From an uncultured Nitrospinaceae bacterium (GTDB taxonomy: Bacteria; Nitrospinota; Nitrospinia; Nitrospinales; VA-1), in NCBI GenBank assembly GCA_964584125.1, contig CAZOYP010000003.1, forward strand, positions 1 to 49,496: DNA of 49,496 nt, read 5' to 3'. The translations under genes and the position numbers were made by a program. Of the stretch, positions 3,522 to 17,627 are shown one piece after another. How positions within the stretch are numbered: the first letter of the stretch is position 1; each line of letters opens with the position of its first letter. The notes under the pieces are model-generated. The model was given only the letters and a program-made list of their open reading frames with translations, ran no database searches and was not told where the DNA came from.

Positions 3522-5879
3522 TCAACGCTGGATTTCTTCTAAAACAAAAGCTTCTATAATGTCACCTTGCTTTATATCCTGAAAATTTTCTAGAGAAATT
3601 CCACATTCGTAACCTTGTTGGACCTCCTTCACATCTTCTTTGAAACGTCTTATTGAAATAATTTTCCCTTGATAAACCACAACGCTATCACGAATAAGCC
3701 TAGTATCGAGATTGCGTTCCATTTTTCCTTGAGATACATGGCATCCAGCAATTGATCCTATTCTTGGGAGATTAAATACTTCTCTTACTTCAGATCGACC
3801 AATAACTAGTTCTTTGAACTTTGGAGCGAGCATGCCTTCTAGAGCTTTCTTCATATCTTCAATAGCTTCGTATATTACGCTATACAATCGAACGTCTATT
3901 TTTTCTCGTGTTGCTAATTCGTCTGCTTTATCTGTTGGGCGCACATTAAACCCGATAGTAATTGCGTTAGATGCACTTGACAAAAGAATGTCGGATTCTG
4001 TTATTCCCCCAACTCCATCATGAATTATTTTAAATCGGATTTCTTCGGTCTCTAACTTTGAGAAGGCTTCCTGTACTGCGGAAATTGAACCTTGAGTATC
4101 AGCTTTAACCACAAGATTAAGTACTTGAATTTTACCTTCTATGATTTGCTCGTGAAGATCTTCCATAGTTACTTTAGCGGATTCGGCTAATTGTACTTCT
4201 CGCCTTTTTTTGAGCCGCATTTCACTGTATTGCCTTGCTTTTCGTTCATCTTCAACTACATAAAACTTATCTCCTGGTTGAGGAACCTCAGGTATTCCTA
4301 CTATTTCTACTGGTATAGACGGGGCGGCTTTTGGGGTTTTATCACCATTATCGTTAATCAGTGCCCGCACCTTTCCAAAATAAGGCCCGACAACAAAAGG
4401 TTGCCCCACCTTAAGTGTTCCCTTTTGTACTATTACTGTGGCAATAGGACCTCTTCCTTTATCTAGTTTTGATTCAATTACAACACCTTGCGGGCGGAGA
4501 GTTGGGTTTGCTTTTAGTTCCATGATTTCAGCTTGCAGGATAATCAGCTCTAAGAGGTGATCGATTCCTGTACTTTGTAATGCAGAAACCTCTGTGAACA
4601 TTGTCTGTCCACCCCAGTCCTCAGGCAACAACCCTATTTCAGCCAGTTGTTTTTTTACCTCTTCTGGCTTGGCTCCAGGTTTATCAATTTTATTAATAGC
4701 AACCAAAATGGGCACATTGCCTGCGTGGGCATGGTCTATCGCCTCTTTCGTTTGAGGTTTAATTCCATCATCAGCAGCAACTACTAAAATGACGATGTCT
4801 GTTACCTGCGCTCCGCGGGCACGCATTGCTGTGAATGCCTCATGCCCAGGAGTGTCAAGAAAAGTAATGAATTGATCTTTAACTTTTGCTCGGTAGGCCC
4901 CTATATGTTGAGTGATACCACCCGCTTCAGCGTTAGTGAGATTGGTTTTTCTCACGGCGTCAAGCAATGATGTTTTCCCATGGTCAACATGTCCCATAAT
5001 TGTTACGATTGGCGGTCGAAGGCAAACATCTTTGGGATCTTCTTTTTCTTCTTCTTCAAAGTCAATAGCCGATTTATCCTTGATCAATTCAACCTCAAAA
5101 CCCCGTTGATCTGCTACTTTTGAGGCAACCTCGAAGCTTAGGCTTTGGTTTATGGTGGTCATGACACCTAGATTCATTAATTCTTTAATCACATCGTTAG
5201 GAGAGCAGCGCAATTTTTCTGCCAAGTCGCGAATCATTATGTTTTCTGGAAGTTGAACAACTTCAAAACTCTCTTCTTGAACTTCAGCGGGTAATGGCTC
5301 GGGTTTAAGTATTTCAGTAGGGGCTTCTTGTTGGGTTTCCTTTTTTACTGATTTTTTTGGGCTGGATACAGGTTTTGCTTTAGTGGGGGTAGGTTTTTTT
5401 TCGACTTCCGTGGGCTTCTCTTCGTGTTTTACAATTTTGAGCCCAAGTTTTTTAGCGACTTTAACAGGTTCATTAATAGGTTCTTTAACAGGCTCTTTTT
5501 TTGTTCGTTTTTTTGTCGAAGATTTACTGACAGTTTTAACAACGGTTGTTTTTTTTACAGTGGTAGTAGATTTTTTAGTGGTTTTTTTTACGGTCTTGGG
5601 TTTTACTTCGGGGCCTTTCTTTTTGGTAGTTGCTTTCTTTTTAACTACTCTAGCCTTTTTTGGAGTACTTTTTTTGGTTGCTTTCTTAGTGGCTTTTGAA
5701 GGCGTCTTTTTAGTTGCAGGTTTAGGATTAAATAAATTGCGGATTTGGTCTGCAATTGCCTCATCTATAGAGCTCATATAATTCTTAACAGCATGTCCCT
5801 TATCTTCAAGGGCGTCTAAGATCTGATCATTTTGAATGTTGAGTTCTAAGGCCAACTTATTAATGCGAATTTTCGCCAA
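3522..5879 (-). CDS. infB: Translation initiation factor IF-2
   Basis: [28 protein letters not shown] and NKID GTPase motifs; K/T-rich N-terminal linker; TTG start with GGAGG RBS. Confidence 0.98.
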
Positions 5880-12056: not shown

Positions 12057-13424
12057 CTAATTGATAACTCGTACTATATCGTTATAGAAAGCAAATACCA
12101 TCAAGCTTATTAGCATGAAAAAGCCTATTTGTTGAGCTATTTCTCTATTTTTTTCACTAACCGGTCGTCCCTTCGCTATTTCTATGAGAAAAAACAAAAT
12201 GTGACCCCCGTCCAAAATTGGGATTGGGAGTAAATTAATTAATCCAAGGTTGATACTTAGTAAGGCGGTTAGTCTAAAAAATTCATAAAAGCCTTGCTCG
12301 GCCTGCTCTCCATAAATCTGAAAGATCAGTATGGGGCCACCAATTTGATCTGCTGGAATTGATCCAAATAGCATTTTTTGCACACTGACCGCGATCAAGG
12401 CGGTCATTTCCCAAGTTTCTTTTATGGATCTTCCGATCGCAGCAAGCAGGCCATATTGCTCGAGCACCATGTGGCCACTCATTCCAATACCAATCTCTCC
12501 AATTTCTAAATTTTTTCCATCTTTATCTTTAATTATTTTTGAGATAGGACTCAGGGGTATTAGTATTTCTGTGTCGTTACGTTGAATTTTGAAAACCAGG
12601 GATTTGCCTGGTTTATCGACTGCCGCAGGTCTAAGGTCCGACCAGCCAAATATGTTTGTATCGTCCACTGCGATAATACGGTCATTAATTTGTAGACCTG
12701 CCTTTTCGGCAGCACTTCCCTTTTTGACATAGCTAATAGTATTTGCAAGTGGGGTTATGCCAATTAGTCCGACTTTTTCTTTGTCGCCAAAAAGATTATT
12801 GATTTCTTCTGAATTGGGTATAACTTCTAAATTAATAATCCCTTTTGTTAAGCGTTCAATTTGAAAGTTGAGACTCTTCCCAGGTGAATCATATACCTTC
12901 TTCTGAAGCTCACTCCAATAAAGGATTGGTTTGTTATTGATAGATACTATTTTGTCTCCTGTCTGGAGGCCTGCCTCGAGGGCGGGTGAATTTGATTTTA
13001 CAGTTCCAATTATTGGACCTATTGTTTCAACTCCTACCATGAAGATAAATATATAGATAGCTAAAGCAAATAGAATATTAAATAAAGGACCAGCAAATGC
13101 TATTAAAAGACGGTGGTGTGGTGGCGCAGCTGAGAACGAACCTTTTTCATTTGTTTCTTCACCAAGTTCCTCTCCCTTCATTTTTACATAACCGCCCAGC
13201 GGGATAGCTGCAATAATAAATTCGGTGCCTTGGGAGGTTGTCCCAAATAGCTTTTTGCCAAAACCTATAGAAAACTTTTCTACAATGACACCACATTTTC
13301 GGGCAGCAAGAAAATGCCCTAGCTCATGGATAAATATGAGGGCGGCCAAGCCAGCTAGAAATGCGAAAACTTTGAGGCCAACAGTTGATAAAGCATCGAG
13401 AGATATAGATGATATTTCAAACAT
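12057..13424 (-). CDS. rseP: RIP metalloprotease RseP (two PDZ domains)
   Basis: HELGH zinc motif, FSIGFG, IPLGGYVKM, AGPLFN, NLLPIPILDGG. Confidence 0.95.
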   Translation of the reverse strand: MFEISSISLDALSTVGLKVFAFLAGLAALIFIHELGHFLAARKCGVIVEKFSIGFGKKLFGTTSQGTEFIIAAIPLGGYVKMKGEELGEETNEKGSFSAAPPHHRLLIAFAGPLFNILFALAIYIFIFMVGVETIGPIIGTVKSNSPALEAGLQTGDKIVSINNKPILYWSELQKKVYDSPGKSLNFQIERLTKGIINLEVIPNSEEINNLFGDKEKVGLIGITPLANTISYVKKGSAAEKAGLQINDRIIAVDDTNIFGWSDLRPAAVDKPGKSLVFKIQRNDTEILIPLSPISKIIKDKDGKNLEIGEIGIGMSGHMVLEQYGLLAAIGRSIKETWEMTALIAVSVQKMLFGSIPADQIGGPILIFQIYGEQAEQGFYEFFRLTALLSINLGLINLLPIPILDGGHILFFLIEIAKGRPVSEKNREIAQQIGFFMLISLMVFAFYNDIVRVIN

Positions 13425-13444
13425 AAGTAATTTAGGGTAATTGT

Positions 13445-14128
13445 TTAGGGGCTAGGTGTAAAATCTTGAATTTCTACTCCGGGAGGAACTTCGAAATCAA
13501 AAACACTTTCTGGTATTTCCTCGTTAGTACGGATGGCTCGAAATTTAATTTCTGTTTTATTACCCAATTTATCATACACGGTCGCCCCTGTGATTTGGTA
13601 GTTATTTTTGTTTGCTCGAAGGAGGAGGCGGCTTAAATTACTTTCAACTTCCTTTGGAGTAAAGACAACGATAAACTTATTCTTTTTAGTTAGAACCTGC
13701 ACAGTGTCAAAAGTGTCAGTCAACCTTCCTTGCCCTGCCAGAAAGAGCGCAGGAGTATTTGATGAATATACGTTTTCAATAGGCATTTTTGTTGCTTGCT
13801 CATCTTCAGGTGCGTAGAGCCATAAATTTTTTTGATCGCTAATAAGAATCTGTGGATCTGGAGAGTTATATGTCCATTTCATTTTACCCGGTTTTTTAAT
13901 CTGGACATTCCCTCGGGTAATTTCTGTTCTGTTTATCATCTTTACAAAGGCCTTTTGCTCAAAGGTTGCCTGAAATGTTAGAACGGATTCATAATTCTTT
14001 TGAATTGCATTAACAGTGGCCTGCTCGTTACTAGTAGCCCATGAAGGGATATGCCAATATAAAATAAGAAAAGTAAATAATAAACTGAATTTCATTTGCA
14101 TGAACATCTTTGTGTGATAATTCTTCAT
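13445..14128 (-). CDS. lolA: Outer membrane lipoprotein carrier LolA family
   Basis: Signal peptide, FQATFEQ, KKPGKMKWTYNSPDPQILISD, FDFEVPPGVEI. Confidence 0.9.
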   Translation of the reverse strand: MKNYHTKMFMQMKFSLLFTFLILYWHIPSWATSNEQATVNAIQKNYESVLTFQATFEQKAFVKMINRTEITRGNVQIKKPGKMKWTYNSPDPQILISDQKNLWLYAPEDEQATKMPIENVYSSNTPALFLAGQGRLTDTFDTVQVLTKKNKFIVVFTPKEVESNLSRLLLRANKNNYQITGATVYDKLGNKTEIKFRAIRTNEEIPESVFDFEVPPGVEIQDFTPSP

Positions 14129-14748
14129 TAACGGGTTTTGTGCGCCACTGTTCTACCGTTGATTTTGATTTGATTTTCTTTGATCATCTTGATTGCTTTT
14201 GGATAAAGGTGGTGCTCCTGCTCAAGTATTCTTTCAGAAAGAGACTTTTCGTTATCGTTGTCGTAAATAGGGACTGCAGTTTGTAAAATAATTGGTCCGC
14301 TATCAATACCCGAATCAACGAAGTGGACAGTGCACCCGGAAAATTTAACCCCGTATTCTATGGCTTGTTTTTGAGCATTTAAACCTGGAAATGCTGGTAG
14401 TAAGGAAGGATGTATATTTATAATTTTTTCCTTAAAGGTTTGTATCACCTCTTCTCCTAGGATGCGCATATATCCAGCAAGACAAATAAGGTCAACAGAA
14501 AATTCTTTTAATTTTTCTACAAGGGCTTTGTCGTACTCCTTTTTGTTTAAATAGCCAGCAGGATCAATAAAAATTGTTTTTATGTTATGTTTTGCTGCTC
14601 GCCTTAAAGCCATGGCGTCTTTGGTATTGCTAATGACTATGGAAATATTGGCGCTCAGTTCTTCTCTCTCAATACTGTCGATTATAGATTGCAAATTAGA
14701 ACCGCGGCCGGAAACAAGAACGGCTAATTTGAAAATATTTAATGTCAT
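14128..14748 (-). CDS. purN: Phosphoribosylglycinamide formyltransferase
   Basis: VLVSGRGSNLQ, LAGYMRIL, INIHPSLLPAFPG, GCTVHFVD. Confidence 0.97.
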   Translation of the reverse strand: MTLNIFKLAVLVSGRGSNLQSIIDSIEREELSANISIVISNTKDAMALRRAAKHNIKTIFIDPAGYLNKKEYDKALVEKLKEFSVDLICLAGYMRILGEEVIQTFKEKIINIHPSLLPAFPGLNAQKQAIEYGVKFSGCTVHFVDSGIDSGPIILQTAVPIYDNDNEKSLSERILEQEHHLYPKAIKMIKENQIKINGRTVAHKTR

Positions 14749-14964: not shown

Positions 14965-16959
14965 TCAAAGCCCTGCGTTTGTCAAAGTTTTTAATAGCCC
15001 TATGTTTTGAGTGTGCCCTGATTTGTATGCTCTGATATGTCCTCGAATGGGCTTACCTAAAAGATAAAAATCTCCCAGGATATCAAGAATTTTATGTCTT
15101 GGGAATTCATTTTCAAATCGTAATTGGGTATTGATAACTTTCCCATCTCCCAGCAAAATAAAGTTGTCCAAGTTGCCACCAGAAGCAAATCCCATTTTTG
15201 TTAATTGGGCGATGTCTTTCATAAACCCGAATGTGCGTGCAGGGGCTATTTCTTTTTTAAAGCTTTTATTATCTATATATTCGAATGTGTGGCCCATCAC
15301 TCCTATTGGAGCCGGGTACTCCATATGGTAACTAACCTTAAAAGTATCACTTGGTTCAATGCTAATATAGGAAGTGCCCATTTCTTGAGTCCCGAATGTA
15401 TATTTTTTATCGATAATTAATTCCTGATAAAATTTTCCCTGTTCTTCAATTCCTCCGTCTTCGATTAGTTCACAAAAATCTTTTGAAGATCCATCCATGA
15501 CCGGAACTTCATCTCCGACCTTTATGAGCAAGTTTGTAATTTGGTACATGTGGAGAACAGCCATGATATGTTCTATGGTAGCCACGCTGGCTTTTCCTTT
15601 TTGGAGGGTTGTAGAGTAGCTGGTAGATATAATATTTTCAAGTCGCGCTGGAATAGTTTGTCCGCTGGAAATGTGACTAAAAATAATGCCGCTTTCGGGC
15701 GGCAAAGGTTGCAGGATTAGGCCAGTTTTGAGTCCTTTATGAAGTCCGCTTCCATATAATACGACGCTTCTTTTAAGTGTTCTTTGCTGAGGGTATTTAA
15801 GTTTGTTGATTTTTATTTTTTTCGGTTGGGCTTTTGGTCGACTGATTTCTAAAGGAATTTGATTAAGAGAAATGCCTTTCTGTGAAGTAGCGACTGCAAG
15901 AATGCGATCTAATACAGAATGAAGTTCCCTGATATTTTCTGGCCAATGATATTGACAAAAGGCTTCAAGTGCCGCTGAGTCTAATTCGGGGGTTGGGAAC
16001 CCATCCTTTTGTGATATTTTTTCAAGATGGTTGCGAACCAACACAGGAATAATCGAAGGATTCTCTCTTAAAGAAGGCACGTTAATAGTTGTATTTTTAA
16101 AAAATTTCAGTAGATCACGGTTAAACAGACTTTGTTGAGAAAGTTCCTCGAGATTTTTAGAAGAAGAGATGTATAGGCGTGATGGTAGTAATCTTTGTTC
16201 TTCAGTTTCATCAGGAGATAACGAATTGAATAGCTTCTTTTGAATGGTTTGATTCAGGGCATCTACATTATCTAAATAAACAACTTGGGATAGGGTTGGA
16301 TACGTGTTCAAGTCATTAGTCTGTGATGTATTTGAGCCTTTGTTTGATTGAAATAGAAAAGAATTGATTTCGTGAGGTGGCCTAGAAGCACAATTGAGCT
16401 TAATAAAAGGAATATTATTTTTTGAGCTTCTTTGATGGATTTCTTGCGCGATATATTCTTTTCCTGTTCCTATTTCTCCTAAAAAGAGCAGGGCATTATT
16501 TGATTGTGAGTGGGTTTTTATGGCTTTTTGTGTTTCAATTAGCGTGGCAAACCCTAGCAAGGCAGCGTTGTTTTTTTTTACTGGGTGGTTTTTTTTGAGT
16601 CCCAATGCACTTTTTACAGATTGAGTTAATCTGTCCATTGAGAACGGTTTTTCAATAAAGTCAAAAGCTCCAAGCTTAGTTGCTTTTACTGCTGTGTCGA
16701 TGGTCCCGTGCCCAGACATGACCAGGACTTCTATTTCAGGGTGATAAGTTTTAACAGTCTTTAATACCTCTATCCCATCCATTCCAGGAAGCCAGACATC
16801 GAGCAATAAAAGATCTGGTGGATCAGATTGAATCATATCCAGTGCGTTGAGCCCGTCCTCGGTTACCAAAACATCATAGCCCTCATCAGATAAGATTTCT
16901 TTAAGGGAATTTACGATATTGGTTTCATCATCAATTACTAAAATACGTTCTCGAGGCAA
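14965..16959 (-). CDS. lpxC: Fusion protein: response-regulator receiver + degenerate sigma54-type AAA+ domain + UDP-3-O-acyl-GlcNAc deacetylase LpxC
   Basis: N-terminus ILVIDDE...LLDVWLPGMDG...MSGHG...FIEKP; middle GEIGTGKE...KLNCA...YHWPENIREL; C-terminus QRTLK...GLHKG...TIEHIMA...APARTFGF...HKILDILGD...SGH. One uninterrupted frame with TTG start and GGAG RBS. Confidence 0.92.
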   Translation of the reverse strand: MPRERILVIDDETNIVNSLKEILSDEGYDVLVTEDGLNALDMIQSDPPDLLLLDVWLPGMDGIEVLKTVKTYHPEIEVLVMSGHGTIDTAVKATKLGAFDFIEKPFSMDRLTQSVKSALGLKKNHPVKKNNAALLGFATLIETQKAIKTHSQSNNALLFLGEIGTGKEYIAQEIHQRSSKNNIPFIKLNCASRPPHEINSFLFQSNKGSNTSQTNDLNTYPTLSQVVYLDNVDALNQTIQKKLFNSLSPDETEEQRLLPSRLYISSSKNLEELSQQSLFNRDLLKFFKNTTINVPSLRENPSIIPVLVRNHLEKISQKDGFPTPELDSAALEAFCQYHWPENIRELHSVLDRILAVATSQKGISLNQIPLEISRPKAQPKKIKINKLKYPQQRTLKRSVVLYGSGLHKGLKTGLILQPLPPESGIIFSHISSGQTIPARLENIISTSYSTTLQKGKASVATIEHIMAVLHMYQITNLLIKVGDEVPVMDGSSKDFCELIEDGGIEEQGKFYQELIIDKKYTFGTQEMGTSYISIEPSDTFKVSYHMEYPAPIGVMGHTFEYIDNKSFKKEIAPARTFGFMKDIAQLTKMGFASGGNLDNFILLGDGKVINTQLRFENEFPRHKILDILGDFYLLGKPIRGHIRAYKSGHTQNIGLLKTLTNAGL

Positions 16960-16976
16960 ACTTAATCTCCAAGGTG

Positions 16977-17627
16977 TTATGTTAAGGGGGTTTTGTGCTG
17001 CTTTTGAAATTCTAAATAAAAAATACGCTCTCCTGCGCAGATAAATTTTTTTTCGTATTTGCTTTTAGGGACCCCTTCTTTTTGAAATAGAAATGTACCA
17101 AGCCCATTTTTGTTTTTCAAGGCCAATTCATTCTCAAAAAAATAAAGAATTTCCATGGCGTAGGCCTCGTGATCTGTCGCGATATGAATTTCACCATTAG
17201 GCTTAAGCTTTTCGGTCAGAACTTTGATGAAGTCTGGTTTAATTAGTCTACGTTTATGATGCTTTGTTTTTGGCCACGGGTCGGGGAAGTTTATGTATAC
17301 ATTGCTAACTTCTTCAGGGTTAAATAAAAGGGGGATTTTATTTTTCGCATCACCATATATGATTCTGGCATTGTGCATTTCATGTTTGTCAATTCGAGTA
17401 ATAACTTTTCGGATCCCTTTGTGATAAAAATCAATTCCAATAAAGTTTTCATTAGGTTCTCGAATACCCATTTCTATAAGAAAGTTTCCGACTCCAAAAC
17501 CGATTTCTAGGTTCAATGGATTACGATTTCCAAATAAATTTTCCCAATTGGGTCTAGTTTCGACGTCGAGAAAGTTGGAACTGTTTTCTGCTATTTCTTC
17601 AAATGAAATAAGATTTTTAAAAGACAT
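16977..17627 (-). CDS. trmB: tRNA (guanine-N7)-methyltransferase TrmB
   Basis: LEIGFGVG, INFPDPWPKTKHHKRRL, ATD, SKYE. Confidence 0.95.
   Translation of the reverse strand: MSFKNLISFEEIAENSSNFLDVETRPNWENLFGNRNPLNLEIGFGVGNFLIEMGIREPNENFIGIDFYHKGIRKVITRIDKHEMHNARIIYGDAKNKIPLLFNPEEVSNVYINFPDPWPKTKHHKRRLIKPDFIKVLTEKLKPNGEIHIATDHEAYAMEILYFFENELALKNKNGLGTFLFQKEGVPKSKYEKKFICAGERIFYLEFQKQHKTPLT

What the first reader, a model, noticed from the sequence alone, without database searches (positions are those of the whole stretch)
14965..16959. LpxC fused behind a phospho-receiver and a degenerate NtrX-like AAA+ domain: possible phosphorelay-gated lipid A synthesis
Seen: one 664-aa frame with three parts. 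(i) A receiver with all canonical residues (DDE pocket, phospho-acceptor D in LLDVWLPG, S in MSGHG, K in EKP). (ii) A sigma54-activator AAA+ remnant that keeps Walker A (GEIGTGKE) but has lost the GAFTGA loop (EINSFLFQSNKG), has Walker B DE changed to DN, and has WPGN changed to WPEN. (iii) In place of the usual Fis HTH, a full LpxC (about 14965-15789) with Zn ligands and catalytic residues (TIEH, HKILD, SGH). Known: LpxC is the committed step of lipid A synthesis and in enterobacteria is controlled by FtsH/LapB proteolysis; the familiar LpxC fusion partner is FabZ. Inference: an NtrX-type transcription factor has been repurposed as an allosteric or oligomerization module, so a kinase could switch LPS synthesis directly. 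No cognate kinase and no other lpx gene is in the window.
Basis: partly seen in the sequence, partly recalled or inferred. Interest (0 to 1): 0.85.

Follow-up and report, generated by a model that had tools for sequence, protein, structure and literature searches.

The report
Response regulator fused to LpxC
This marine Nitrospinota bacterium makes its only LpxC, the enzyme that commits a cell to building lipid A for its outer membrane, as the tail of a two-component signalling protein, so a membrane sensor kinase probably switches the enzyme directly, a control not described in the papers I could search.

Summary
Window 14965-16959 (-) is one 664-aa gene: an intact receiver, a sigma54-type AAA+ domain that keeps its P-loop but has lost GAFTGA, the Walker B glutamate and the arginine finger, then a full LpxC with all catalytic residues. 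It is no chimera. All 120 best database relatives share the architecture, and a contig from another sample bridges the junction. It is the only LpxC match in this genome, and 108 of 120 Nitrospinota genomes show exactly one.

New here:
- The partner exists. An NtrY-type kinase lies unlinked on contig C19 of this genome and directly upstream of the fusion gene in 11 genomes of three other families.
- The AAA+ and HTH modules are dispensable. Relatives carry REC-HTH-LpxC or REC-LpxC, and one genome of the same family has deleted the AAA+ module outright.
- Such fusions also occur in Acidobacteriota, Binatota, Thermodesulfobacteriota and Nitrospirota.
- Receiver and LpxC are equally conserved (79% mean identity); the AAA+ is not (48%).

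Best reading (about 0.6): receiver phosphorylation sets LpxC activity post-translationally; how, and in which direction, is unknown. Five paper searches found no description. Earlier agents of this scan reported the same fusion in eight other genomes.

The parts
14965..16959 (-). Whole gene: 664-aa REC / dead AAA+ / lid / LpxC fusion protein (P0001), TTG start
   Evidence: All 120 best relatives carry LpxC plus the AAA+ lid, and 119 of 120 also REC and Sigma54_activat; the exception is a partial record.
16967..16970 (-). GGAG Shine-Dalgarno-like motif 7 bases before the TTG start. The trmB stop codon is at 16977-16979, so co-transcription with trmB is possible.
   Evidence: read directly from the sequence
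16615..16944 (-). Receiver (REC) domain, residues 6-115. The acidic pocket D10/D11, S82, F101 and K104 are all present.
   Evidence: Pfam PF00072, E 1.5e-31. D11, D54, S82, F101 and K104 are invariant in 35 relatives.
16798..16800 (-). Codon of D54, the predicted phospho-acceptor aspartate (LLLLDVWLPG)
   Evidence: invariant column D54. It aligns with the corresponding aspartate of Brucella NtrX 5m7n.
16093..16536 (-). Sigma54-activator-type AAA+ core, residues 142-289, catalytically degenerate
   Evidence: Pfam PF00158, E 2.6e-20. Motif comparison.
16456..16479 (-). Walker A P-loop GEIGTGKE (residues 161-168), retained
   Evidence: G161, E162, G164, T165, G166, K167 and E168 are invariant in 35 relatives.
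16267..16272 (-). Walker B remnant D230-N231, where Brucella NtrX has D-E. The catalytic glutamate is replaced by asparagine.
   Evidence: None of the 27 AAA-bearing fused forms examined keeps DE.
15823..16050 (-). AAA+ lid domain, residues 304-379 (WPENIREL instead of WPGN)
   Evidence: Pfam PF25601, E 1.8e-13
14980..15786 (-). LpxC domain, residues 392-660: E463/H464 (TIEH), T576/F577, H622/K623/D626/D630 (HKILD..GD), H649 (SGH). No C-terminal tail beyond the catalytic fold.
   Evidence: Pfam PF03331, E 1.2e-82. TIGR00325 above its cut-off. These residues are invariant in 35 relatives. Alignment to solved LpxC ends at chain residue 274 of 299.
14128..14748 (-). Downstream neighbour: formyltransferase (PurN-like). 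The same order [fusion]-purN-lolA is seen in G001 of another order.
13445..14128 (-). Downstream neighbour: LolA outer-membrane lipoprotein carrier
   Evidence: Pfam PF03548, E 4.7e-37
12057..13424 (-). Downstream neighbour: RseP-type M50 site-2 protease with two PDZ domains. An M50-type gene also follows the fusion gene in G108.
   Evidence: Pfam PF02163, E 3e-70
16977..17627 (-). Upstream neighbour: TrmB-like methyltransferase. Here it occupies the place that the NtrY-like kinase gene has in families f5, f7 and f9. The same GreA-TrmB-[fusion] order is seen in G040.

Best explanation
The gene encodes the cell's LpxC as the output domain of an NtrX-derived response regulator. An NtrY-type membrane histidine kinase most likely phosphorylates D54 of the receiver. 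In this genome that kinase is unlinked, at G000:C19:23541-25754, behind a DUF4390 gene. The phosphorylation state then sets how much LpxC activity the cell has, after translation. [quoted passage not shown]

The functional core is REC plus LpxC. The AAA+ domain cannot act as a sigma54 activator and very probably cannot hydrolyse ATP. In this lineage it most likely survives as a nucleotide-binding spacer or oligomerisation scaffold that transmits or tunes the receiver's switch. The HTH has been lost.

Shown:
- the architecture
- integrity of the REC and LpxC residues
- sole copy among what was assembled
- existence of the kinase, and its adjacency to the fusion gene in relatives
- dispensability of the AAA+ and HTH modules

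Inferred:
- phosphotransfer from that kinase
- any effect of phosphorylation on LpxC
- the direction of that effect (activation or inhibition)
- the physical mechanism (dimerisation through the receiver, release of an intramolecular block, or ring assembly)
For: 1. Real and conserved. All 120 best relatives, down to 52% identity, carry LpxC plus the AAA+ lid, and 119 also REC and Sigma54_activat. Of 108 LpxC matches in 120 Nitrospinota genomes, 92 sit in open frames of at least 670 aa. Every genome with a match has exactly one, including single-contig genomes. A contig from a sample not flagged as the source (X3, 15430-15937, no differences) bridges the lid/LpxC junction.

2. The receiver is under the same constraint as the enzyme. 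Mean pairwise identity is 0.79 for REC and 0.79 for LpxC, against 0.48 for the AAA+ core and 0.47 for the lid. Invariant columns number 57 of 120 in REC and 123 of 274 in LpxC. D11, D54, S82, F101 and K104 are invariant. The equivalent residues also hold in 23 short REC-LpxC forms, most of them from unnamed metagenome records.

3. Kinase. Of the 120 genomes, 103 have a match at E <= 1e-100 (one each in 101, two in G002 and G032). It is directly upstream of the fusion gene in 11 genomes: f5, 4; f7, 2; f9, 5. It is also directly upstream in 9 of 21 fusion loci from other phyla. The own-genome copy has NtrY_N, HAMP, PAS, HisKA and HATPase_c, and no response regulator gene beside it. The three next-best kinase hits each have their own bEBP-type regulator adjacent.

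4. LpxC looks active. It is a full-length match above the curated cut-off, and all metal-binding and catalytic motifs align with solved LpxC. lpxA and lpxD are present elsewhere in the genome.

5. The core is REC plus LpxC. G001 has REC-HTH-LpxC (514 aa). G108 has REC-LpxC (447 aa). G040, of the same family, has REC-LpxC (453 aa) with the AAA+ and lid deleted and the same GreA-TrmB neighbours. On an LpxC tree, long and short forms are interleaved.

6. An independent functional link. In the passages I read, NtrYX represses lpxC transcription in Rhodobacter sphaeroides (8.8-fold) and Caulobacter (PMC7240162, PMC12444477).

7. The protein ends 4 residues after the LpxC match and has no counterpart to profile positions 272-297 or to the last 25 residues of the solved chain. 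From recall, the FtsH degron of E. coli LpxC lies in that C-terminal tail.
Against: - No biochemical or expression data exist; none of the listed runs that hold this DNA is on record as RNA.
- In this genome, and throughout families f1-f4, kinase and fusion gene are unlinked, at least 90 kb apart where both lie on one contig. The pairing here rests on orthology and elimination.
- The full-length AlphaFold model gives no confident arrangement between domains (pTM 0.49), so no physical route from REC to LpxC is visible.
- One short form (P0147) has N at the acceptor position, so some family members may work without phosphorylation.
- The genome is 88% complete, so a second LpxC cannot be strictly excluded here. 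The single-contig relatives argue against one.
- The standalone LpxCs in the tree were those most like the query, and the root is unknown, so 'single origin' is not proven.
Confidence: 0.6

Rival explanations
1. Phosphorylation controls turnover, not catalysis. The receiver, with or without the AAA+ remnant, acts as a switchable degron or adaptor handle. The kinase then sets LpxC abundance through a housekeeping protease, a functional analogue of FtsH/LapB control in enterobacteria.
For: LpxC is controlled by proteolysis in the systems studied so far (FtsH/LapB; Lon in alphaproteobacteria), according to passages of PMC12444477. This LpxC lacks the C-terminal tail, so a degron would have to lie elsewhere. 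The conserved receiver and kinase fit this reading as well as they fit direct control.
Against: Nothing in the sequence points to a protease. The short REC-LpxC forms leave little room for an adaptor surface. A LapB-type zinc-ribbon match exists at C133, but that model also fires in Gram-positive controls, so it says nothing.
Confidence: 0.17
2. The N-terminal module is an evolutionary relic. LpxC is constitutively active, and REC and AAA+ serve only as a folded N-terminal extension.
For: The AAA+ and HTH parts are plainly decaying or lost in many lineages. The kinase gene is no longer linked in f1-f4. One short form has N at the acceptor site.
Against: The receiver is as conserved as the enzyme (0.79 against 0.79), with all phospho-chemistry residues invariant. 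The parts that really are dispensable have drifted to 0.47-0.48 or been deleted. The kinase orthologue is kept in 103 of 120 genomes. The receiver is retained in every one of the 70 fused forms classified, apart from one truncated frame.
Confidence: 0.12
3. The protein is mainly a regulator, and the LpxC domain is its sensor. The domain would bind the lipid A precursor and report pathway flux to a transcriptional or protein-protein output.
For: Longer relatives keep an HTH-derived segment. In G001 and P0143 it still scores above the Pfam HTH_8 cut-off (27.8 and 25.7 bits against 22). NtrX regulates envelope genes in alphaproteobacteria.
Against: This protein has no HTH at all. The catalytic residues are invariant, which a mere binding domain would not need. 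It is the only LpxC match in the genome, while lpxA and lpxD are present, so it must supply the enzyme.
Confidence: 0.03
4. Assembly chimera or frameshift artefact joining two separate genes.
For: None found. The source is a metagenome-assembled genome of 149 contigs.
Against: The same architecture appears in all 120 best relatives from many sources and in closed genomes. Contigs from a sample not flagged as the source bridge the lid/LpxC junction, and contigs from two such samples the REC/AAA+ junction. There is no in-frame ATG, GTG or TTG between residues 375 and 401 that could start a separate LpxC.
Confidence: 0.01

Closest known systems
NtrY/NtrX two-component system (Brucella abortus NtrX, PDB 5m7n/5m7o/5m7p; Rhodobacter sphaeroides and Caulobacter NtrYX)
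   Same: - Best NCBIfam model (NF051870, 243 bits) and best solved structure (5m7n, 171.6 bits) for residues 1-388.
- Both lack GAFTGA.
- The partner kinase has the NtrY_N-HAMP-PAS-HisKA-HATPase architecture.
- NtrYX is already tied to lpxC and the envelope in alphaproteobacteria (passages of PMC7240162 and PMC12444477).
   Different: - The score is far below the equivalog cut-off (243 against 600).
- There is no HTH.
- Walker B is DN where Brucella NtrX has DE, and FNRD replaces FRED.
- An LpxC enzyme is fused at the C-terminus.
- The known NtrX acts on lpxC at the level of transcripts, and in R. sphaeroides only indirectly, not as one polypeptide.
LpxC, UDP-3-O-acyl-GlcNAc deacetylase (PF03331 / TIGR00325; solved structures, example chain 29ah_A)
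   Same: Full-length match above curated cut-offs. The TIEH, ARTFGF, HKILD..GD and SGH motifs are conserved and align to solved LpxC.
   Different: It carries a 390-residue N-terminal signalling module. It lacks the C-terminal tail (it ends at the equivalent of chain residue about 274 of 299). Fused LpxCs lie apart from 59 of 64 standalone LpxCs on a tree.
Response regulators with enzymatic output domains (CheB methylesterase, PleD/WspR diguanylate cyclases, RpfG HD-GYP); named from recall
   Same: An N-terminal receiver is joined by a linker to an enzyme, and a dedicated kinase is encoded next door in many lineages.
   Different: The output is a biosynthetic enzyme of an essential envelope pathway, not a signalling or adaptation enzyme. 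A dead AAA+ domain lies between receiver and enzyme in this lineage. I did not test how far the mechanisms resemble each other.
Bifunctional LpxC/FabZ (NF009667)
   Same: It is the one LpxC fusion with a curated NCBIfam model. Its LpxC part matches (207.5 bits, profile 4-299 of 464).
   Different: It scores below the cut-off of 465 and has no FabZ part. The partner here is N-terminal and regulatory, not a second pathway enzyme.
Desulfovibrio vulgaris DVU2931/DVU2934 two-component system, whose only mapped target is lpxC (PMC3333781, passages read)
   Same: A two-component system dedicated to LpxC control in a deltaproteobacterial lineage. The paper notes that lpxC lies next to the orthologous regulator operon in Syntrophobacter fumaroxidans. 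REC-LpxC fusions with an adjacent NtrY-like kinase occur in Syntrophobacteraceae MAGs (L023, L024).
   Different: There the control is transcriptional and the genes are separate. Whether DVU2934 and DVU2931 are homologous to this NtrX/NtrY-like pair was not tested, because I held no sequence of them.

Membership tests
LpxC (PF03331 / TIGR00325) | Full-length profile match above the curated cut-off | tested here: met
   PF03331 scores 277.9 bits (cut-off 27), profile 1-267 of 268. TIGR00325 scores 235.5 bits (cut-off 187.25).
LpxC (PF03331 / TIGR00325) | Zinc ligands (His, His, Asp) and the catalytic Glu/His pair; their roles are recalled from the LpxC literature | tested here: met
   E463/H464, H622, D626, D630 and H649 are invariant in 35 relatives. 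They align with the identical motifs of a solved LpxC.
LpxC (PF03331 / TIGR00325) | Deacetylase activity on UDP-3-O-acyl-GlcNAc | not testable with these tools
   Indirect only: it is the sole LpxC match in the genome, while lpxA and lpxD are present.
Response regulator receiver (PF00072) | Profile match, plus acidic pocket, phospho-acceptor Asp, Ser/Thr, switch aromatic and Lys | tested here: met
   109.3 bits (cut-off 30.2). D10/D11, D54, S82, F101 and K104 are present; all but D10 are invariant, and D10 holds in at least 90%.
Response regulator receiver (PF00072) | Phosphorylation by a cognate histidine kinase | not testable with these tools
   The candidate kinase was found by orthology at G000:C19. 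It is adjacent to the fusion gene in 11 related genomes.
NtrX (NCBIfam NF051870, equivalog) | Score at or above the curated cut-off of 600 bits | tested here: not met
   243.1 bits over profile 3-392 of 452. It is the best-scoring model but far below the cut-off.
NtrX (NCBIfam NF051870, equivalog) | C-terminal Fis-type HTH for DNA binding | tested here: not met
   No HTH_8 hit. The roughly 50-residue HTH-derived segment of the 730-aa relatives is absent here.
NtrX (NCBIfam NF051870, equivalog) | Partner kinase of NtrY architecture | tested here: met
   The C19 kinase has NtrY_N (34.9 bits, cut-off 23.2), HAMP, PAS, HisKA and HATPase_c. It is unlinked here and adjacent in f5, f7 and f9.
Sigma54-dependent enhancer-binding protein (PF00158 AAA+) | GAFTGA loop that contacts sigma54 | tested here: not met
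   FLFQSNKGSNTS stands in its place. It is absent in all 27 AAA-bearing fused forms examined.
Sigma54-dependent enhancer-binding protein (PF00158 AAA+) | Walker B Asp-Glu and the arginine finger needed for ATP hydrolysis | tested here: not met
   D230-N231 instead of DE, and FNRD instead of FRED. None of 27 fused forms keeps DE.
Sigma54-dependent enhancer-binding protein (PF00158 AAA+) | Walker A P-loop | tested here: met
   GEIGTGKE; the pattern GExGTGKE is invariant in 35 relatives. Nucleotide binding itself was not tested.
Bifunctional LpxC/FabZ (NF009667) | FabZ dehydratase domain after LpxC, and a score of at least 465 bits | tested here: not met
   207.5 bits, covering only profile 4-299 of 464. 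The protein ends 4 residues after the LpxC match.

The most novel reading that the evidence does not exclude
An NtrY-to-(REC-LpxC) phosphorelay is the main post-translational valve on lipid A synthesis in at least five bacterial phyla, standing in for FtsH/LapB-type control. In Nitrospinaceae the ATP-binding but hydrolysis-dead AAA+ domain makes the switch cooperative, by assembling LpxC into phosphorylation-dependent oligomers. The transcriptional NtrYX-lpxC link of alphaproteobacteria, the lpxC-dedicated two-component system of Desulfovibrio, and these fusions would then be three states of one ancient regulatory relationship.
Probability: 0.2. Interest if true: 0.9.

Novelty: new variant of a known kind. 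Interest (0 to 1): 0.75.

Why it matters
LpxC is the committed, flux-controlling step of lipid A synthesis and a major antibiotic target. Its control has been worked out mainly in a few proteobacteria: proteolysis by FtsH/LapB or Lon, and transcription through NtrYX or ChvGI. That summary comes from the passages I read of the 2025 review PMC12444477, where the words fusion, fused and response regulator do not occur in the main text.

A receiver domain welded to the only LpxC, with its kinase next door in several phyla, would be a direct signal-to-enzyme route. It would show that outer-membrane synthesis can be wired to a two-component sensor without going through gene expression.

It also acts as a 'Rosetta stone' fusion. 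It independently supports the otherwise puzzling link between NtrYX and the envelope, and it gives a simple in vitro system (one protein, one kinase) for asking what NtrY senses. Nitrospinota are the main nitrite oxidisers of the ocean (recalled), so the physiology matters for the environment too. The natural series of domain deletions (REC-AAA-HTH-LpxC, REC-AAA-LpxC, REC-HTH-LpxC, REC-LpxC) is a ready-made set of constructs.

Tried and rejected
- Complex prediction of REC (1-125) against LpxC (388-664), each with a 35-row alignment: verdict 'no answer', scores 0.00 and 0.00 against a mark of 0.32. It counts neither for nor against binding.
- AlphaFold2 of the full protein: mean pLDDT 76.6, pTM 0.49. 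The domains fold, but the arrangement between them is not confident. The short form P0156 gave pLDDT 90.5 and pTM 0.77. Without inter-domain error estimates I cannot say whether REC packs on LpxC, so I did not run fold searches on these models.
- Sequencing runs: no RNA holder is listed, so nothing can be said on expression.
- LapB search with PF18073: one match at G000:C133, but the model also fires in Bacillus, Lactococcus and other controls. I dropped it as uninformative about FtsH/LapB control.
- Cluster look-up of ten short REC-LpxC representatives gave no organism names. Taxonomy came instead from the Atlas and from record titles.
- Search for unfused forms (proteins of 30-364 aa). Most of the 120 listed lie on contigs of a few kb. 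I read 7 of the 11 whose longest contig exceeds 10 kb, and the other 4 were not read. Five of the seven are truncated or frameshifted calls that start inside the fused frame or inside the LpxC fold. Two (P0326, P0370; 51-52% identity) start 28-50 residues before the LpxC fold and could be true receiver-less forms or cut calls. I could not inspect their contigs.
- Five 'standalone' rows fall among the fused LpxCs on the tree. L037 is a fusion with a frameshift in the linker. The other four (P0165, P0176, P0179, P0236) could not be checked.
- L004 and L005 (G099, G088) were fetched to explain short open frames. Their contig ends account for the truncation (coordinates); I did not read them further.
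- Homology of Desulfovibrio DVU2934/DVU2931 to this system could not be tested, as I held no sequence.
- Internal start for a free LpxC: no in-frame ATG, GTG or TTG between residues 375 and 401, so I rejected it.
Full report
WHAT IS THERE

Window 14965-16959 (- strand) is a single 664-aa open reading frame with a TTG start. A GGAG lies 7 bases before the start, and the stop codon of the upstream trmB-like gene lies 17 bases away.

Pfam finds four domains:
- Response_reg, residues 6-115, E 1.5e-31
- Sigma54_activat, 142-289, E 2.6e-20
- AAA_lid_14, 304-379, E 1.8e-13
- LpxC, 392-660, E 1.2e-82, covering 267 of 268 profile positions

NCBIfam's lpxC equivalog is passed (235.5 bits against a cut-off of 187.25). 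The best model for the N-terminal 380 residues is NtrX, at 243 bits, far under its 600-bit cut-off.

NOT AN ARTEFACT, AND THE ONLY LpxC

- All 120 best relatives in the 5.8-billion-protein search, down to 52% identity, carry LpxC and the AAA+ lid. 119 of them also carry REC and Sigma54_activat; the exception is a partial record. They come from many sources. Some sit on contigs of megabase size, and some are named Nitrospina, Nitrospinaceae or Candidatus Nitromaritima.
- Contigs of public runs laid on the gene bridge both domain junctions. One bridging contig comes from a sample not flagged as the possible source (X3, 15430-15937, no differences), though from the same study.
- The own genome (2.43 Mb, 149 contigs, 88% complete) has one LpxC match, which is this gene.
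- Across 120 genomes of the phylum, 108 have a match, and each has exactly one. 92 of the 108 lie in open frames of at least 670 aa. Nine single-contig genomes are among them.
- lpxA and lpxD are present elsewhere in the genome, so the pathway exists and needs this enzyme.
- No in-frame ATG, GTG or TTG lies between residues 375 and 401, so a separate LpxC from an internal start is unlikely.

STATE OF EACH MODULE

I aligned 35 relatives spanning 57-91% identity to the window protein.

Receiver:
- D11, D54, S82, F101 and K104 are invariant.

AAA+ domain:
- The Walker A pattern GExGTGKE is invariant.
- The Walker B position that should be Glu is an invariant Asn (N231).
- The preceding Asp is kept only in this clade; elsewhere it is S, K, G, R or T.
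- No member has GAFTGA.

LpxC:
- E463/H464, T576/F577, H622/K623/D626/D630 and H649 are invariant. They align with the same motifs in a solved LpxC.

The closest solved structure for the N-terminal part is Brucella NtrX (5m7n, 171.6 bits). NtrX also lacks GAFTGA, but it keeps LDE and FRED where this protein has LDN and FNRD. So the AAA+ domain here is more degenerate than that of NtrX itself. I examined 27 AAA-bearing fused forms from several lineages. None keeps Walker B DE, and a few have lost the P-loop as well.

Mean pairwise identity by domain:
- REC 0.79
- AAA+ core 0.48
- lid 0.47
- LpxC 0.79

The receiver is therefore held as tightly as the enzyme, and the middle is not.

THE MIDDLE IS DISPENSABLE

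- Relatives of about 730 aa carry a segment of roughly 50 residues between lid and LpxC that aligns with a Fis-type HTH. Pfam no longer recognises it in the four I scanned, P0042, P0062, P0069 and P0091.
- In G001, of another order, the protein is REC-linker-HTH-LpxC (514 aa, no AAA+). Its HTH_8 still scores above the cut-off, 27.8 bits against 22.
- In G108 it is REC-linker-LpxC, 447 aa.
- G040 belongs to the same family as the window's genome. It has a 453-aa REC-linker-LpxC whose REC is 76% and whose LpxC is 77% identical to ours. Residues of about 134-380 are simply gone, and the upstream neighbours GreA and TrmB are the same.
- The window's own lineage has lost the HTH segment, while its nearest tree neighbours P0042 and P0062 keep it. 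P0065 and the P0099 group lack it too. So the HTH was lost more than once.

WIDER FAMILY

- The search of 1.84 billion representatives found many REC-LpxC proteins of 400-460 aa.
- The Atlas assigns such clusters mostly to Thermodesulfobacteriota and Candidatus Binatota.
- In one genome per species, record titles place short fusions in Acidobacteriota (Holophagales, Thermoanaerobaculia, Terriglobia), Binatota, Syntrophobacteraceae, Desulfocapsaceae, 'Deltaproteobacteria' and a Thermodesulfovibrionia bacterium. AAA-bearing long forms occur in Desulfomonile and other Thermodesulfobacteriota MAGs.
- I built an LpxC-domain tree of 134 rows with the quick method.
  - 59 of 64 standalone LpxCs form one starred clade.
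  - All 70 fused forms lie outside that clade, together with five rows scored as standalone. One of the five, L037, is a fusion with a frameshift in its linker. The other four are short gene calls that I could not check.
  - Long and short forms are interleaved; starred branches force at least four changes of the AAA label.
  - This fits one old fusion of a complete NtrX-like regulator to LpxC, followed by repeated loss of the AAA+ and HTH.
  - Caveats: the standalone rows were those most like the query, and the root is not known.

THE KINASE

- In G001 and G108 a kinase gene of 740-745 aa overlaps the start of the fusion gene.
- Its orthologue in the own genome lies at G000:C19:23541-25754 (48% identity, 718 bits).
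- That copy has NtrY_N, HAMP, PAS, HisKA and HATPase_c domains. It is preceded by a DUF4390 gene, as in G001, and followed by an aldehyde dehydrogenase-like gene (my reading of the translation, not scanned), not a response regulator.
- The three next-best kinase hits in the genome (C75, C35, C85) each sit beside their own bEBP-type regulator.
- The closest paralogue of the fusion's N-terminal part is only 31% identical.
- Across the phylum, 103 of 120 genomes have a match at E <= 1e-100: one each in 101, two in G002 and G032.
- Comparing coordinates shows the kinase directly next to the fusion gene in 11 genomes.
  - Family f5: G001-G004.
  - Family f7: G108 and G109.
  - Family f9: G112, G115, G116, G118 and G119. 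These carry the full-length 731-755-aa form.
- In families f1-f4 the two genes are 90 kb to 1.35 Mb apart wherever they share a contig.
- In loci from other phyla, the kinase is directly upstream in 9 of 21 (Binatota, Syntrophobacteraceae, 'Deltaproteobacteria', Thermodesulfovibrionia). It is not within 4 kb in the Acidobacteriota loci.

CONTEXT IN THE LITERATURE

Passages of a 2025 review of lipid A regulation (PMC12444477) and of Lemmer et al. 2020 (PMC7240162) report three things. NtrYX lowers lpxC transcripts in R. sphaeroides and Caulobacter. Loss of ntrYX raises lpxC 8.8-fold and doubles LPS. No NtrX site lies upstream of lpxC. Passages of Rajeev et al. 2011 (PMC3333781) report a Desulfovibrio two-component regulator whose only mapped target is lpxC. 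I could not test whether that system is homologous to this one.

Five full-text searches found no paper that describes a receiver-LpxC fusion:
- LpxC with response regulator, fusion and receiver domain
- LpxC with Nitrospina
- NtrX with LpxC
- LpxC with output domain and response regulators
- the phrases 'fused to LpxC', 'LpxC fusion', 'REC-LpxC', 'LpxC domain' and 'LpxC fused'

In the review's main text, the words fusion, fused and response regulator do not occur. Subscription journals are outside the library. Public databases do hold the proteins, annotated simply as LpxC or NtrX.

MECHANISM

The conserved unit is a phosphorylatable receiver, an active-looking LpxC and an NtrY-type kinase. 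The simplest reading is that the kinase sets the receiver's phosphorylation state and that this state sets LpxC output after translation. I give this about 0.6.

How the signal reaches the enzyme is open. The candidates are receiver-driven dimerisation, release of an intramolecular block, or, in AAA-bearing forms, nucleotide-dependent assembly. My attempts to see a contact gave nothing usable. The direction is also unknown. The alphaproteobacterial precedent (NtrYX lowers lpxC) hints at inhibition, but that is analogy only.

The protein lacks the C-terminal tail, which, from recall, carries the FtsH degron in E. coli. This fits control having moved to the N-terminus. It also leaves room for the rival reading that phosphorylation governs turnover (0.17). 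A relic reading (0.12) is hard to square with the receiver's conservation.

VERDICT

The gene is real and conserved, and I found no paper describing it. It is a new variant of a known kind, a response regulator with an enzymatic output. His emphasis on the AAA+ domain as the working allosteric module does not.

Earlier agents of this scan reached the same overall reading on eight other genomes. Apart from naming NtrX as closest known, I ran each check reported here myself. Kinase adjacency I had found before reading the notes.

Noticed in passing
L006 (G040:C134) 1372-2733 +: A genome of the same family carries a 453-aa REC-linker-LpxC. The whole AAA+ and lid module is deleted, yet REC and LpxC stay 76-77% identical to the window protein, and the upstream GreA-TrmB genes are the same. 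It amounts to a natural deletion construct.
   Followed up: yes
L007 (G000:C19) 3719-4399 -, and L002 5921-6499 -: A DUF4390 gene sits directly upstream of the NtrY-like kinase in both the own genome and G001. I did not test that.
   Followed up: partly
window 12057-14748 -: The fusion gene is followed by purN, lolA and an RseP-type M50 protease. The purN-lolA order recurs in G001, and an M50-type gene follows the fusion in G108. So the gene keeps company with envelope-biogenesis genes across orders.
   Followed up: partly
L037 4001-5235 +: In one 'delta proteobacterium' MAG the receiver and the LpxC part lie in different reading frames, with a shift in the linker. This is either an assembly error or a pseudogene or split form.
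   Followed up: partly
P0147 (alignment A2, acceptor column): One short REC-LpxC form has Asn instead of the phospho-acceptor Asp (LLNIWLP). It may be a phosphorylation-independent member.
   Followed up: no
G000:C149:5-553 - and G000:C71:3832-4587 -: The genome has two lpxA matches above the cut-off: a complete one on C71 and a partial one at the end of the small contig C149. This could be a duplicate contig, strain variation or contamination (3.3% estimated).
   Followed up: no
L033, L035, L036 (Thermodesulfobacteriota / Desulfomonile MAGs): Long REC-AAA-(HTH)-LpxC forms of 707-764 aa open frame occur outside Nitrospinota. Their Walker B and arginine-finger motifs are even more degenerate.
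   Followed up: partly
window 16627-16810: Contigs of runs X1 and X2 show clustered third-base-like differences and extra depth over the receiver-coding part. This probably comes from related strains or species whose highly conserved receiver sequence maps here.
   Followed up: no
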